Positions 19,749 through 21,668 of a DNA stretch of 21,668 bases are shown here, one piece after another. Numbering within the stretch: position 1 is the stretch's first letter; each line of letters opens with the position of its first letter. This DNA comes from Halobacteriaceae archaeon (GTDB lineage Archaea > Halobacteriota > Halobacteria > Halobacteriales > Halobacteriaceae): assembly GCA_042216675.1 (NCBI GenBank), contig JBDGTS010000025.1:1-21668 (forward strand), given 5' to 3'. The notes under the pieces were generated by a model. The model saw nothing but the letters and a program-made list of their open reading frames with translations. It searched no databases and was not told where the DNA came from. A program made the translations under genes and the position numbers.

Positions 19749-19780
19749 CCTCTTTGCCTGCCCGGCGGCACGTCACCGAC

Positions 19781-20806
19781 ATGGACGGACGGGAACGCGA
19801 CGGGGAAATCGTCGTCGACGGCGACGCGCGTCAGCGCTTCCACGACGCCCGCGGCTACGGGCGTCCGCTCGACGGCGACTCGCTCGCTCTCACCCGCGTC
19901 GAGGCGGCCCACTTGCTGTTCCGCGGGGACCTCGTCTCCGTGGACGGCCGGGGATTCCGCGAGTTCCTCTCCGACGCCGAGGCGGGCTTCGCGCCCCGGT
20001 TTCTCGTCTACAAGGACCTGCGGGACCGCGGCTTCTATCTCTCGCCCGCCCGCGAAGGGTGGGTCACCGACCCCCGCGACGACGTGGACTTCGTCGTCTA
20101 CCCCCGCGGCAAGGGGCCGTGGGACGAGGACGTACTGTACCGGATTCGGGCCGTCGGGGAACGCGCGCCGGTGTCTGCCGCCGGGGTGGGCGACTGCGTC
20201 CTCGCCGTCGTCGACGAGGAGAGCGACATCACCTACCTCCAGACGGCCGAGCCGACGCCAACCGGCGGCACCGAGTACACGCCCCCCAGCGACGTGTCGG
20301 GCACCCTCCTCGACGACCGGGCCGTCCTCTGGGACCCGCCCGAGGACCTGCACCACCGGGGCTTCTACGGCCGACCGCTGGAAGGCAGAGACGAGTCCGC
20401 GGACTCGCCGCTTCAGTTGTCGCTCATCGAGGCCGCCTACCTCGCCGCGGAGGGGGCGCTGTCGCTGGACCTCCGGCGCGTCGTCGAACGCGGGCGGGCC
20501 GTCGAGGGCGACCGCTTCGACCGGCGCCTGCGCACCTACCGAGCGCTCCGGGACGGCGGCCTCGTCCCCAAGACGGGGTTCAAGTTCGGGGCCGACTTCC
20601 GCGTCTACGCCACCGTCGAGACGGTGGACGACCTCGGGCACGCCGAGTTTCTGGTGCGCGTCCTCCCCGCCGACTACGACTTCGAACCGCGGGACTTGGC
20701 GCTCGACGTGCGCCTCGCCCACGGCGTCCGCAAGGAGATGCTGTTCGCGCGCCACGGCGACGGGGAGCGTCCCTCGTGGCTCTCGGTGAGCCGCCTGACA
20801 CCGTAG
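19781..20806 (+). CDS. endA: tRNA-splicing endonuclease (tRNA-intron lyase), tandem-repeat homodimeric type
   Basis: Two repeats (LTRVEAAHL...FLVYKDLRDRG and LSLIEAAYL...YRALRDGG). The catalytic unit carries KTGFKFGADFRVY, GHAEF and RLAHGVRK. ATG at 19781. Confidence 0.95.
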   Translation: MDGRERDGEIVVDGDARQRFHDARGYGRPLDGDSLALTRVEAAHLLFRGDLVSVDGRGFREFLSDAEAGFAPRFLVYKDLRDRGFYLSPAREGWVTDPRDDVDFVVYPRGKGPWDEDVLYRIRAVGERAPVSAAGVGDCVLAVVDEESDITYLQTAEPTPTGGTEYTPPSDVSGTLLDDRAVLWDPPEDLHHRGFYGRPLEGRDESADSPLQLSLIEAAYLAAEGALSLDLRRVVERGRAVEGDRFDRRLRTYRALRDGGLVPKTGFKFGADFRVYATVETVDDLGHAEFLVRVLPADYDFEPRDLALDVRLAHGVRKEMLFARHGDGERPSWLSVSRLTP

Positions 20807-20814
20807 ATGCCAAC

Positions 20815-20822
20815 GATTAAGG
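20815..20822 (+). promoter_or_regulatory. TATA-like box (GATTAAGG) of the putative trpS leader transcript
   Basis: TTAA core 26-29 nt upstream of ATG 20846, the same spacing seen for other genes in the window. No comparable box lies at that distance from the trpS ATG (20993). Confidence 0.55.
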
Positions 20823-20845
20823 CCTTCTCGGCGGAGAGTGAGGAC

Positions 20846-20920
20846 ATGGAGTCCACTTCCGGCTGGCGGTGGCCACACGGTTCGGAAGTGGACAGTGTCG
20901 CGGTCCCGGCGGGGGGCTGA
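20846..20920 (+). CDS. Putative Trp-containing leader peptide (uORF) MESTSGWRWPHGSEVDSVAVPAGG upstream of trpS
   Basis: ATG 20846 to TGA 20918-20920, 24 aa, with TGG codons at 20864-20866 and 20870-20872. It lies directly upstream of trpS, at leaderless distance from a TATA-like box. Confidence 0.6.
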   Translation: MESTSGWRWPHGSEVDSVAVPAGG

Positions 20921-20955
20921 CCCACGCCGCGAACGCGTCGCTCACTCCGCTTTTT
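20851..20955 (+). promoter_or_regulatory. Putative attenuator RNA with mutually exclusive helices and a U-tract
   Basis: GTCCACTTCCG (20851-20861) is the perfect reverse complement of CGGAAGTGGAC (20883-20893). GGAAGTGGA (20884-20892) can alternatively pair with TCCGCTTTT (20946-20954) using three G-U pairs. T5 run at 20951-20955. Confidence 0.55.
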
Positions 20956-20992
20956 CCACGCACCGACTTCGACCACCGCGCCCAGACCACGC

Positions 20993-21668
20993 ATGACACG
21001 CGACACAGACTCAGCCACCGAGGAATCGACGCACACACTGACCGACGGCGGGAGCGAGACGGCCGCCGGCGCCGACGAGGCCACTCTCGACCCGTGGGGG
21101 TCCTCGACTATCGCCGACTACCGCTCGCTGTTCGAGGAGTTCGGCATCGAGGCGTTCGAGGACGTCCTCGACTCGGTGCCGAACCCCCACTATCTGATGC
21201 GGCGGGCCATCATCTTCGGCCACCGCGACTACCGCCGGGTGCTGACGGCGATGCGCGAGGACGAACCGTTCGCCGCGCTCTCCGGCTTCATGCCCACCGG
21301 CGACCCCCATATCGGTCACAAGATGGTGTTCGACGAAATCATCTGGCATCAGGAGCAGGGCGGCGACGCCTACGGCCTCATCGCCGACTTAGAGGCCCAC
21401 AGCGCCCGCGGCCTCTCGTGGGACGAAATCGACGACCACGCCGAGGACTACCTGCTCTCCCTGCTGGCGCTCGGCTTCGACCCCGAGGACGGCGAACTGT
21501 ACCGCCAGTCCGACAACCGCGAGGTGCAGGACCTCGCCTTCGAGTTGGGGTCCGAGGCGAACTTCTCGGAGTTCGAGGCCATCTACGGCTTCGACGGCGA
21601 GACCGAAATCTCGCACATGCAGAGCGTCGTCACGCAGATGGCGGACATCCTCTACCCGCAACTCGACG
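20993..21668 (+). CDS. trpS: Tryptophan--tRNA ligase, 3'-truncated by window edge (absent from the ORF track)
   Basis: Manual translation [11 protein letters not shown]...LDPWGS...[11 protein letters not shown]...[11 protein letters not shown]...[13 protein letters not shown] (HIGH)...IADLEA...YRQS...[11 protein letters not shown] matches archaeal TrpRS. Confidence 0.95.

What the first reader, a model, noticed from the sequence alone, without database searches (positions are those of the whole stretch)
20807..20992. Candidate tryptophan-sensing leader-peptide attenuator upstream of archaeal trpS
Seen in sequence: the longest intergenic gap in the window (186 nt) has a TATA-like ATTAAG at 20816-20821. 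About 27 nt later an ATG opens a 24-codon uORF, MESTSGWRWPHGSEVDSVAVPAGG, with two Trp codons (W-R-W). It ends 72 nt before the trpS ATG and is followed by a TTTTT tract at 20951-20955. Established: Trp is a rare residue; clustered cognate codons in leader peptides mark ribosome-mediated attenuation of amino-acid and aminoacyl-tRNA synthetase genes in bacteria; archaeal transcription and translation are coupled; and archaeal termination is favoured at U-tracts. Inference: ribosomes loading on the leaderless uORF stall at the UGG codons when Trp-tRNA is scarce and thereby switch trpS expression on. Classical attenuation is barely documented in archaea. The closest precedent I recall is the predicted leuA-Halobacteria leader motif, so a trpS equivalent may be undescribed.
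Basis: partly seen in the sequence, partly recalled or inferred. Interest (0 to 1): 0.9.

Follow-up and report, generated by a model that had tools for sequence, protein, structure and literature searches.

The report
Tryptophan-codon leader upstream of archaeal trpS
The short Trp-containing reading frame in front of trpS is real and belongs to a conserved leader of salt-loving archaea that probably senses charged tRNA-Trp through a translating ribosome, a control known from bacteria that I did not find described for archaea.

Summary

Window 20844-20957 is one member of a conserved leader of about 115 nt, in this order:
- a BRE/TATA promoter;
- a leaderless uORF;
- hairpin H1, with UGG-CGN-UGG in its apical loop;
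- hairpin H2;
- a pyrimidine/T tract (T5C in the window);
- 35-50 nt of spacer, then the gene.

A covariance model found the leader in 60 of 151 genomes of the order (33 of 60 genera). It found none in 132 genomes elsewhere in the phylum. Of 76 elements analysed, 52 precede a short TrpRS paralogue (trpS2), 13 precede trpS1 (the window's case) and 1 precedes trpD.

Translation is supported. The Trp pair lies in frame with the 5' start codon in 60 of 60 cases, across seven different offsets. Trp makes up 9.1% of residues, against about 1% in this genome. A stop codon sits in the H2 loop only where the frame reaches that loop.

The Haloferax volcanii homologue is on pHV4. Raw RNA-seq coverage there begins at the uORF AUG and runs on into trpS.

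There is no Rfam match, and nine literature searches found no archaeal precedent. The output step and the direction of regulation are inferred, not shown. Ten elements with the same scaffold but few or no Trp codons lie before other genes or could not be assigned.

The parts
19754..20806 (+). endA (tRNA-splicing endonuclease), the upstream gene; stop TAG at 20804-20806
Evidence: ORF. Homologues lie upstream of trpS in relatives.
20812..20820 (+). Promoter: A-rich BRE-like positions (-34/-33) and TATA ATTAA (-30..-26 from the uORF ATG)
   Evidence: Profile over 62 elements anchored on the start codon: A/T 81-87% at -30..-26, A 84% (52 of 62; A/T 92%) at -34, A/T 60-69% at -12..-10. The window fits the first two. 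Calling these BRE, TATA and the -10/-11 WW element is recalled knowledge of haloarchaeal promoters.
20846..20920 (+). Leaderless uORF, 24 codons plus TGA (MESTSGWRWPHGSEVDSVAVPAGG)
   Evidence: Homologous uORFs in 66 Trp-linked elements.
20864..20872 (+). Sensor codons UGG-CGG-UGG in the apical loop of H1
   Evidence: TGGnnnTGG is in frame with the start codon in 60 of 60 elements that have it, at offsets 15/18/21/24/27/30/57. The window's offset is 18.
20851..20893 (+). Hairpin H1: 5' arm 20851-20861 pairs with 3' arm 20883-20893 (11 bp)
   Evidence: (4 of 11 pairs show changes on both sides; 93.6% of cells paired).
20894..20942 (+). Hairpin H2, directly abutting H1; the apical loop 20915-20920 contains the uORF stop codon
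   Evidence: The base helix covaries. A hairpin of 12 or more bp is present in 58 of 66 elements. Relation between loop and stop codon.
20943..20957 (+). Pyrimidine tract CACTCCGCTTTTTCC with a T5C motif (20951-20956): candidate terminator, and alternative pairing partner of the H1 3' arm
   Evidence: Conserved GCTCMCTC-YTYTY box. T stretches ending at C are the H. volcanii intergenic termination motif, and T5C gave 95% termination in a reporter (PMC7237163, passages). Pairing of arm and tract.
20958..20992 (+). C/A-rich spacer between the tract and trpS, with no Shine-Dalgarno-like sequence seen
   Evidence: The distance from the model end to the gene start is mostly 34-51 nt in relatives.
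20993..21668 (+). trpS1 (long-type tryptophan--tRNA ligase), 5' part; the gene runs off the window
   Evidence: NCBIfam NF008928, E = 3.9e-133 over residues 3-225. The frame opens at 20921 and the first start codon is 20993.

Best explanation
Window 20812-20992 is an internal promoter plus a leader that senses Trp-tRNA(Trp) through the ribosome and controls trpS1.

Proposed sequence of events:
1. Transcription starts at or next to the uORF AUG, so the mRNA is leaderless.
2. A ribosome translates the 24-codon uORF. Its two UGG codons sit in the loop of hairpin H1.
3. When charged tRNA-Trp is plentiful, the ribosome passes, terminates at the stop codon in the H2 loop and leaves. H1 and H2 refold and the pyrimidine/T5C tract stays single-stranded. 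Transcripts then end, or are cut, before trpS.
4. When charged tRNA-Trp is scarce, the ribosome stalls on UGG and holds the 5' arm of H1. The freed purine-rich 3' arm (20884-20892) pairs with the tract (20946-20957) and masks it. RNA polymerase or the mRNA then continues into trpS.

What is shown: conservation, the reading-frame constraint, the two hairpins, the link to Trp genes, and a transcript start at the AUG in a homologue.

What is inferred: stalling, the arm:tract switch, the tract acting as a terminator or a loading site for a termination factor (aCPSF1/FttA; recalled), and the direction of regulation.
For: Family and context.
- Model R1 hits 60 of 151 genomes of the order, in 33 of 60 genera. 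It hits 0 of 132 genomes outside the order in the same phylum.
- Of 76 elements, 52 precede trpS2-type genes, 13 trpS1-type and 1 trpD.
- 41 of the 44 genomes with a trpS2-type gene also carry the leader (cross-tabulated by me).

Translation.
- 62 of 66 Trp-linked elements have ATG or GTG at model positions 3-5. By my manual reading of the sequences printed, the other 4 have a start a few nt away that also puts WRW in frame.
- TGGnnnTGG lies at a multiple of 3 from the start in 60 of 60, across 7 different offsets.
- TGG counts by frame are 133/14/7.
- Trp is 136 of 1497 residues, 9.1%, against 1.06% in long ORFs of this genome.
- Some members carry 3-4 Trp codons (WRWRW, WQWRWGW).
- The stop lies in the H2 loop in 38 of 58. 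There the loop reads C[GC]UAA in 33.
- The stop lies before the loop in 18 of 58. There the loop ends in UCA(C) in 17 of 18 and never overlaps the uORF stop.
- The stop lies beyond the loop in only 2 of 58.

Promoter. TATA at -30..-26 and an A-rich position at -34 (A 84%; A/T 92%) relative to the start codon, in 62 elements.

Structure.
- 91.6% of cells are paired, against 32-46% when the 3' partners are slid.
- 8 of 19 pairs show changes on both sides; 1 of 500 shuffles reaches this.
- The window fold has z = -3.39.

Expression.
- L119 is 100% identical over 1501 nt to H. volcanii pHV4, upstream of an annotated tryptophan--tRNA ligase.
- In raw-read runs X22 and X23, RNA-strand depth is 0-0.35 (X22) and 3-5 (X23) before the AUG.
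- It is 15.8 (X22) and 36 (X23) in the first bin after the AUG, and runs on into the CDS.

Switch.
- With the ribosome footprint masked, the freed arm pairs with the tract in 31 of 50 elements.
- Cognate arm:tract duplexes are better than non-cognate ones, -11.95 against -11.45 kcal/mol, permutation p = 0.006.

Terminator. T5C is a strong H. volcanii terminator (PMC7237163).
Against: - There are no data under Trp limitation, no mapped 3' ends and no ribosome footprints for any member.
- In the two raw-read runs the leader reads through into trpS. X23 shows higher leader depth (60-67) than CDS depth (7-30), but X22 does not clearly do so.
- The arm:tract duplex is barely better than with a shuffled tract (-11.9 against -10.4 kcal/mol; only 3 of 50 beat 95 of 100 shuffles). 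The complementarity is therefore largely compositional. The p = 0.006 is not corrected for relatedness.
- The alternative helix does not compete with H2, unlike a classical antiterminator. It could form only after the tract has left the polymerase.
- Most trpS2 leaders have TCTC-type tracts rather than T runs.
- A simple coupling model predicts the opposite direction. A ribosome at the stop codon would prevent H2, while a stalled ribosome would allow it.
- Ten of 76 elements share the scaffold with 0-1 Trp codon, or lie before other genes (4 GNAT, 1 methyltransferase, 1 Nramp, 4 not assignable). The scaffold therefore has a role that does not depend on Trp.
- The 76 elements come from two of my own searches, one seeded with the Trp motif. 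This inflates the Trp-linked share.
- The window comes from an 80%-complete assembly of 58 contigs with no close relative in the set.
Confidence: 0.68

Rival explanations
1. The uORF is translated, but it does not report Trp-tRNA supply in the classical direction. It might sense free Trp through a nascent-peptide arrest, in the manner of TnaC. It might couple trpS expression positively to efficient translation (polarity: a stall leads to termination). Or it might be a constitutive leader that sets basal expression or mRNA stability.
For: Geometry: a ribosome at the stop codon in the H2 loop would melt H2, whereas one stalled at UGG leaves H2 plus T5C intact. The same scaffold occurs without Trp codons before GNAT, methyltransferase and Nramp genes. 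The peptide shows a recurrent M-x-S-[AT]-x-x-W-R-W pattern. RNA-seq shows read-through under ordinary growth.
Against: Much of the peptide pattern is forced by the H1 arms. S-T-S pairs with E-V-D and S-A-P with G-A-D, and these covary as RNA. The frame downstream of WRW differs between members (ADS against RTVS), and the stop position varies from 13 to 29 codons. That argues against a conserved arrest peptide. The number of Trp codons expands to 3-4 in some members, as expected for a sensor that works by codon dose. Shutting off a TrpRS gene when Trp-tRNA is scarce has no precedent among the aaRS controls I know of (recalled).
Confidence: 0.17
2. The element is a structured RNA read by a trans factor and the ORF is incidental. 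The factor could be tRNA-Trp pairing its CCA anticodon with the loop UGGs (T-box-like), or an RNA-binding protein.
For: H1, ACAGU, H2 and the tract are conserved at the RNA level, including in members without Trp codons. The H2 loop consensus CNU[A/C]A is an RNA-level motif. UGG is displayed in an apical loop.
Against: The in-frame result holds in 60 of 60 elements across 7 offsets. Start codons sit at the transcript's 5' end, including ATG-to-GTG changes. UAA appears in the H2 loop only where the frame reaches it. None of this is expected for an untranslated RNA. There is no T-box or any other Rfam match.
Confidence: 0.1
3. The ORF is a chance ORF in a GC-rich spacer, a remnant of an N-terminal extension of trpS broken by a stop codon, or an assembly artefact.
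For: In the window the uORF, the ATG at 20807 and trpS all share one frame, and relatives start trpS right after endA. GC-rich DNA yields many open frames, and WxW occurs in 2.2% of short ORFs.
Against: The frame of the uORF relative to the gene varies between members: same frame in 8 of 18, +1 in 4 and +2 in 6. The translated spacer is not like TrpS. The element is conserved with its own promoter in 33 genera and before a different paralogue.
Confidence: 0.02

Closest known systems
Classical ribosome-mediated trp attenuator (E. coli trpL)
   Same: A short leader ORF with two close Trp codons precedes a Trp gene, with RNA hairpins and a U/T-rich tract in between. Ribosome position is proposed to choose between RNA folds. 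The mechanism is summarised in PMC4007540 (passage); the rest is recalled.
   Different: This case is in Archaea. The uORF is leaderless, with no SD. The Trp codons lie in a hairpin loop, not in segment 1. No 2:3 antiterminator competes with the terminator hairpin. The candidate switch is the H1 3' arm against the post-hairpin tract. Archaeal termination does not need a hairpin.
Attenuators upstream of trpS in Streptomyces (predicted in PMC1262725; S. coelicolor trpRS1, recalled and not retrievable)
   Same: A leader peptide with Trp codons controls a tryptophanyl-tRNA synthetase gene. As in most haloarchaea here, the controlled gene is a second, auxiliary paralogue (trpS2 in S. avermitilis; passage).
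   Different: Those are bacterial, with SD-led leaders and classical terminator/antiterminator hairpins. There is no sequence or structural similarity to this element: no Rfam hit.
Leaderless leader peptides of Deinococcus deserti (PMC4007540) and Cys-responsive leaderless sORFs of mycobacteria (bioRxiv 10.1101/834739; listing and abstract only)
   Same: The leader ORF starts at the very 5' end of the transcript, and cognate codons precede aaRS or biosynthesis genes (cysS with two Cys; passage).
   Different: Those are bacterial and have no shared RNA scaffold. The haloarchaeal family has a fixed two-hairpin architecture that is also reused without Trp codons.
T-box riboswitch
   Same: It controls aaRS genes according to tRNA charging, and a codon is displayed in an RNA loop.
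   Different: A T-box is not translated and senses uncharged tRNA directly. Here the frame constraints indicate translation, and no T-box model matches.
leuA-Halobacteria motif
   Same: By recollection, a predicted leader-peptide element in Halobacteria.
   Different: I could not examine it. One search found no paper, it is absent from the main text of PMC5737381, and supplements were closed. No Rfam family reaches its gathering score anywhere in the window. None of the four matches with E up to 10 in 20780-21010 is a haloarchaeal motif.

Membership tests
Leader-peptide (ribosome-mediated) attenuators | A short ORF upstream of the regulated gene, enriched in codons of the cognate amino acid | tested here: met
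   Two Trp in 24 codons in the window. 136 of 1497 residues (9.1%) are Trp in 62 Trp-linked uORFs, against 1.06% background. The downstream genes are TrpRS or TrpD by NCBIfam.
Leader-peptide (ribosome-mediated) attenuators | The leader ORF is translated | tested here: inconclusive
   Indirect but strong: the Trp pair is in frame in 60 of 60 across 7 offsets, the start codon is conserved, and the stop codon correlates with the H2 loop sequence. The transcript begins at the AUG in the H. volcanii homologue. I saw no footprint or peptide data. The Ribo-seq papers' main texts do not mention it and supplements were closed.
Leader-peptide (ribosome-mediated) attenuators | A terminator between the leader ORF and the gene | tested here: inconclusive
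   The window has hairpin H2 followed by T5C. T5C terminates at 95% in H. volcanii reporters (PMC7237163). No 3' ends were mapped. Most trpS2 leaders have weaker TCTC-type tracts. RNA-seq shows read-through.
Leader-peptide (ribosome-mediated) attenuators | Mutually exclusive RNA folds selected by ribosome position | tested here: inconclusive
   The freed H1 3' arm pairs with the tract in 31 of 50 constrained folds. Cognate beats non-cognate at p = 0.006, but the duplex is barely better than with shuffled tracts. The alternative fold does not exclude H2.
Leader-peptide (ribosome-mediated) attenuators | Expression responds to the supply of the charged cognate tRNA | not testable with these tools
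   This needs Trp limitation experiments.
T-box riboswitch | Stem I with a specifier loop, and the conserved T-box sequence in an antiterminator bulge | tested here: not met
   No match to any Rfam family at gathering score in the window. None of the four matches with E up to 10 in 20780-21010 is a T-box.
TnaC-type arrest peptide | Conserved peptide residues at a fixed distance from the stop codon | tested here: not met
   The distance from WRW to the stop varies, with uORFs of 13 to 29 codons. The frame after WRW differs between members. The defining TnaC residues are recalled.
Archaeal H/ACA guide RNA (considered because ACA follows H1) | A hairpin with a pseudouridylation pocket and a K-turn, followed by ACA | tested here: not met
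   H1 is an uninterrupted 11-bp stem with no internal pocket, and no Rfam match was found.

The most novel reading that the evidence does not exclude
This would be the first family of ribosome-mediated, amino-acid-sensing attenuators in Archaea. It is a modular two-hairpin leader of about 115 nt on leaderless transcripts, found in 33 of 60 sampled genera of the haloarchaeal order. Its H1 loop carries in-frame Trp codons wherever it controls TrpRS paralogues or trpD. Its read-out would work through an archaeal-specific step: masking of a U/C-rich termination tract rather than a bacterial-type antiterminator. The same scaffold with other loop contents before GNAT, methyltransferase and Nramp genes would then be a general archaeal translation-sensing switch.
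Probability: 0.5. Interest if true: 0.9.

Novelty: new variant of a known kind. Interest (0 to 1): 0.85.

Why it matters
I know of no experimentally shown archaeal case of leader-peptide attenuation, the textbook example of coupled transcription and translation, and nine literature searches found none. That covers the open-access library only; supplements and subscription journals were not seen.

This family offers dozens of natural variants. One copy lies in the genetically tractable Haloferax volcanii (pHV4, upstream of HVO_RS02440), so several open questions become directly testable:
- whether archaeal ribosomes and RNA polymerase are functionally coupled;
- how archaeal termination can be made conditional;
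- how haloarchaea regulate aminoacyl-tRNA synthetases.

It also explains why many haloarchaea keep a second TrpRS gene with its own promoter. It flags a reusable RNA scaffold for other genes. And it adds a conserved small ORF that I did not see annotated. The PLSDB gene table for pHV4 lists none there, although that table is incomplete.

Tried and rejected
- **N-terminal extension or broken trpS start.** Rejected, because the uORF frame relative to the gene varies between members.
- **H/ACA guide RNA, T-box and other Rfam families.** No support.
- **sigma-70 and bacterial terminator scan.** It found nothing relevant. The one terminator-like site, at 20633, lies inside endA.
- **No tRNA in the window.**
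- **Plain DNA similarity.** It aligned the spacer only in G050. The family was found with a motif pattern and then a covariance model.
- **Pattern scan.** It hit 79 of 401 genomes, but the reversed-pattern control also hit many. I kept only ATG-led hits. Of the 20 regions fetched, L078 reads ATG-TGA and was dropped. L065 has a 39-codon ORF with a KH-domain gene downstream and was set aside as a probable chance match. L069 was not picked up by the regex. L079 and L080 also failed that regex but were recovered by the model as L112 and L091.
- **Genome contigs pattern scan.** Nearly all of the 80 rows shown were chance hits in bacteria. Six rows had haloarchaeal titles (L165, L187, L203, L209, L215, L223).
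- **RNAalifold on the raw MAFFT alignment.** It found only H1. H2 was established from single-sequence folds and from counted pairs of its base helix.
- **A second, loop-agnostic model from the six non-Trp members.** Abandoned after a poor alignment.
- **Rows dropped before counting.** Of the 85 rows, nine weak rows (27.9 bits or less) were dropped, leaving 76. Eight were opposite-strand matches overlapping a real hit and one was a separate weak match in L107.
- **Subsets used in later calls.** One search used 58 of the 66 Trp-linked elements (those with a clear start, a WxW and a leader under 260 nt). Searches used 50 of those 58 (regexes for arm and tract had to match). One search used 58 of the 76.
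- **Literature.** Nine searches and six papers queried with 'find' gave no archaeal trpS leader. Supplementary tables of the H. volcanii TSS, Term-seq and Ribo-seq papers and of PMC5737381 may list this sORF or motif, but could not be opened.
- **Contig runs X1 and X14.** They show presence only and say nothing about transcript ends.
Full report
**1. The observation**

- endA ends with TAG at 20804-20806.
- ATTAAG lies at 20816-20821.
- A 24-codon ORF (MESTSGWRWPHGSEVDSVAVPAGG) runs from ATG 20846 to TGA 20918-20920. Its UGG codons are at 20864-20866 and 20870-20872.
- TTTTT lies at 20951-20955.
- trpS starts at 20993. NCBIfam NF008928 (tryptophan--tRNA ligase) matches at E = 3.9e-133.

On its own this is weak evidence. 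In this genome, 2.2% of 3310 mechanical short ATG ORFs contain WxW or WW.

**2. The surroundings in relatives**

A DNA search of 61 genomes matched the flanking genes in 60. The spacer itself aligned only in G050.

Of 27 relatives' loci that hold both genes, 23 have the trpS start within 8 nt of the endA stop or overlapping it by 4 nt. Four do not: L014, L015, L027 and L028. So the window's 186-nt spacer is an insertion-like peculiarity.

L014 (G050) has the same layout: TATAAG, then 24 nt, then an ATG-led uORF (MPSTPGWPWPAHPGVESPAAGWG), then about 70 nt, then trpS. Both Trp codons are kept, the wobble positions change synonymously, and there is one 3-nt indel.

**3. A family**

A motif pattern allowing up to 3 mismatches found more ATG-led copies among 401 genomes of the order. 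Eighteen fetched copies carried uORFs of the form M-x-S-[AT]-x-x-W-[RP]-W, 23-27 codons long (one of 39). Seventeen of the 18 lay 59-137 nt upstream of a TrpRS gene.

I built covariance model R1 from 17 of them. Its results:
- It hits the window at 20844-20957 with 90 bits.
- It hits one further place in the window's own genome (C42:6602-6720, 57 bits).
- It hits 60 of 151 genomes of the order, in 33 of 60 genera.
- It hits 0 of 132 genomes from other families of the phylum.

I analysed 76 elements. These are the 85 rows minus nine weak rows (eight antisense overlaps and one separate weak match). The downstream genes were:
- 52 a short TrpRS paralogue (NF008927 type, 'trpS2');
- 13 the long TrpRS (NF008928 type, 'trpS1', the window's case);
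- 1 trpD (TIGR01245);
- 10 other or not assignable: four GNAT acetyltransferases, one SAM methyltransferase, one Nramp transporter, and four that run off the contig or have nothing downstream.

Of the 44 genomes in the 151-genome sample that have a trpS2-type gene, 41 also have the leader. The window's genome has no detectable trpS2, but it is only 80% complete.

endA lies directly upstream in 8 of the 13 trpS1-type leaders.

The 76 are not a random sample. Fifteen came from the motif-seeded scan.

**4. Anatomy**

Anchored on the start codon, 62 elements show three promoter features:
- A/T in 81-87% at positions -30 to -26;
- A in 84% (52 of 62; A/T 92%) at -34;
- A/T in 60-69% at -12 to -10.

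By recalled knowledge this is the haloarchaeal BRE/TATA/-10 layout for a transcript starting at the AUG. The window has ATTAA at 20816-20820.

The RNA has two abutting hairpins.
- H1 is 11 bp in the window (20851-61 with 20883-93) and carries UGG-CGN-UGG in its apical loop.
- After ACAGU comes H2 (20894-20942).
- Then comes a conserved GCUCMCUC-YUYUY tract (20943-57, with T5C in the window).

On the MAFFT alignment A3:
- 91.6% of cells are paired, against 32-46% when the 3' partners are slid by 1-3 columns.
- 8 of 19 pairs change on both sides (1 of 500 shuffles reaches that).
- 0 of 500 shuffles reach the covariation score.

These shuffles ignore relatedness.

The H1 arms covary as ACU/AGU against GCU/AGC. 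This is why the peptide seems to covary too (S-T-S...E-V-D against S-A-P...G-A-D).

Single-sequence folds show H1 in 50 of 66 Trp-linked elements and an H2 of at least 12 bp in 58 of 66. The median z is -2.06. The window's own z is -3.39.

**5. Is the ORF translated?**

Four lines of evidence say that selection sees a reading frame (except where noted).
- 62 of 66 Trp-linked elements have ATG (59) or GTG (3) at the model's 5' end. By my manual reading of the sequences printed, the other four have a start a few nt away that also puts WRW in frame.
- TGGnnnTGG occurs in 60 of those 62. Its distance from the start is a multiple of 3 in all 60, although it takes seven values: 15, 18, 21, 24, 27, 30 and 57.
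- Between the start and the 3' arm, TGG occurs 133 times in frame and 14 and 7 times in the other two frames.
- Trp is 9.1% of residues, and 13 uORFs have 3-4 Trp.

The stop codon is informative as well.
- Where the frame reaches the H2 loop (38 of 58), the pentaloop reads C[GC]UAA in 33, and the UAA is the stop.
- Where the uORF ends earlier (18 of 58), the loop ends in UCA(C) in 17 of 18 and never overlaps the uORF stop (one reads CAUAAC).
- Only 2 of 58 run past the loop.

So ribosomes are kept off the 3' half of H2 and off the tract.

The peptide itself is not conserved beyond what the RNA forces. The frame after WRW differs between members (ADS against RTVS), and lengths run from 13 to 29 codons, with one of 37.

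**6. Expression**

L119 is 100% identical over 1501 nt to Haloferax volcanii DS2 plasmid pHV4 (NC_013966.1). The leader there (124615-124741) precedes the annotated tryptophan--tRNA ligase HVO_RS02440 (124782-125963). No sORF is listed in that gene table.

Two raw-read RNA runs were laid on L119. The uORF AUG is at L119 position 303 and the CDS starts at 468.

| Measure (RNA-strand depth) | X22 | X23 |
|---|---|---|
| Before position 303 | 0-0.35 | 3-5 |
| Bin 304-337 | 15.8 | 36 |
| Leader, peak | 45-121, still rising | 60-67 |
| CDS | 119-151 in the first ~110 nt, about 50 further in | 7-30 |

The transcript therefore begins at or just after the uORF AUG and continues without a break into the CDS.

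That fits a leaderless uORF co-transcribed with trpS. It does not show attenuation. Short RNAs would be lost from such libraries, and no condition of Trp limitation was available.

**7. Mechanism**

The sensor is well supported: Trp codons translated from the 5' end, inside H1. The output is inferred.

I masked a footprint for a ribosome with the second UGG in its A site. In 31 of 50 elements the freed purine-rich 3' arm of H1 then pairs with the pyrimidine tract after H2. In the window, 20884-20892 pairs with 20946-20951 and 20955-20957.

The tract looks like a degenerate copy of the H1 5' arm. Cognate arm:tract pairs are slightly better than non-cognate ones (p = 0.006). But they are hardly better than pairs with shuffled tracts.

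In H. volcanii, intergenic termination sites are T stretches ending at C. T5C terminates at 95% in a reporter, and hairpins precede many sites (PMC7237163, abstract and passages). The window's H2 plus T5C fits that description.

My preferred model is this. The exposed tract causes termination, either intrinsically or through the U-tract-binding factor aCPSF1/FttA (recalled). A ribosome stalled on UGG masks the tract.

Weaknesses of this model:
- The alternative helix does not compete with H2.
- It can form only after the tract has left the polymerase.
- Most trpS2 tracts lack T runs.
- A pure coupling model predicts the opposite sign.

**8. Comparison with what is known**

Functionally the element resembles three bacterial systems:
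- the trp attenuator;
- the predicted Streptomyces trpS attenuators (PMC1262725);
- the leaderless leader peptides before aaRS genes in Deinococcus deserti (PMC4007540).

It is not a member of any Rfam family. Nine literature searches found no archaeal counterpart. I could not check the leuA-Halobacteria motif.

**9. Verdict**

What remains open is the regulatory response itself, its direction and its read-out, and what the scaffold does where it lacks Trp codons.

Noticed in passing
window 20807-20920: An ATG directly follows the endA stop (TAG-ATG), at the place where trpS starts in most relatives. It opens a 37-codon ORF in frame with the uORF. Ribosomes finishing endA on read-through transcripts could therefore reinitiate and also translate the Trp codons. 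L014 has no such start, so it is not conserved.
   Followed up: partly
own genome, G000:C42:6602-6720 (locus L082 1501-1619), outside the window: A second copy of the same scaffold (57 bits) with its own TATA and a uORF, MSASVIGWPPTPEADS..., that has only one Trp. It lies 36 nt upstream of a 294-aa SAM-dependent methyltransferase (Pfam Methyltransf_25).
   Followed up: partly
L126, L131, L139, L141 (GNAT) and L140 (Nramp): The same promoter, H1, H2 and tract scaffold, with 0-1 Trp codon in the uORF, precedes GNAT acetyltransferases of about 195 aa (PF13302) in four genomes and an Nramp transporter in one. The H1 loop content shows no obvious shared amino-acid bias.
   Followed up: partly
L111 (G075:C166): One leader with three Trp codons (MLSAFRSWSWRWYRSGKRTVS) lies 160 nt upstream of trpD (TIGR01245). 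This links the element to Trp biosynthesis as well as to TrpRS.
   Followed up: partly
G094, G137, G161 (one genus, g31): Three genomes have a trpS2-type gene but no model hit at E <= 0.001. They may have a diverged leader or none.
   Followed up: no
window 19754-21668 and relatives: endA and trpS are adjacent, and usually translationally coupled, across the order. By recollection, haloarchaeal pre-tRNA-Trp carries a long intron that needs EndA, so the pair may jointly serve the supply of Trp-tRNA.
   Followed up: no
window versus L002-L030, L014, L066-L071: The window's TrpS1 is closer to the leaderless TrpS1 of its own family (about 80-87% identity) than to the leader-bearing ones (73-79%). 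Its leader, however, most resembles those of another family (f15). That suggests either loss in many lineages or transfer of the leader.
   Followed up: no
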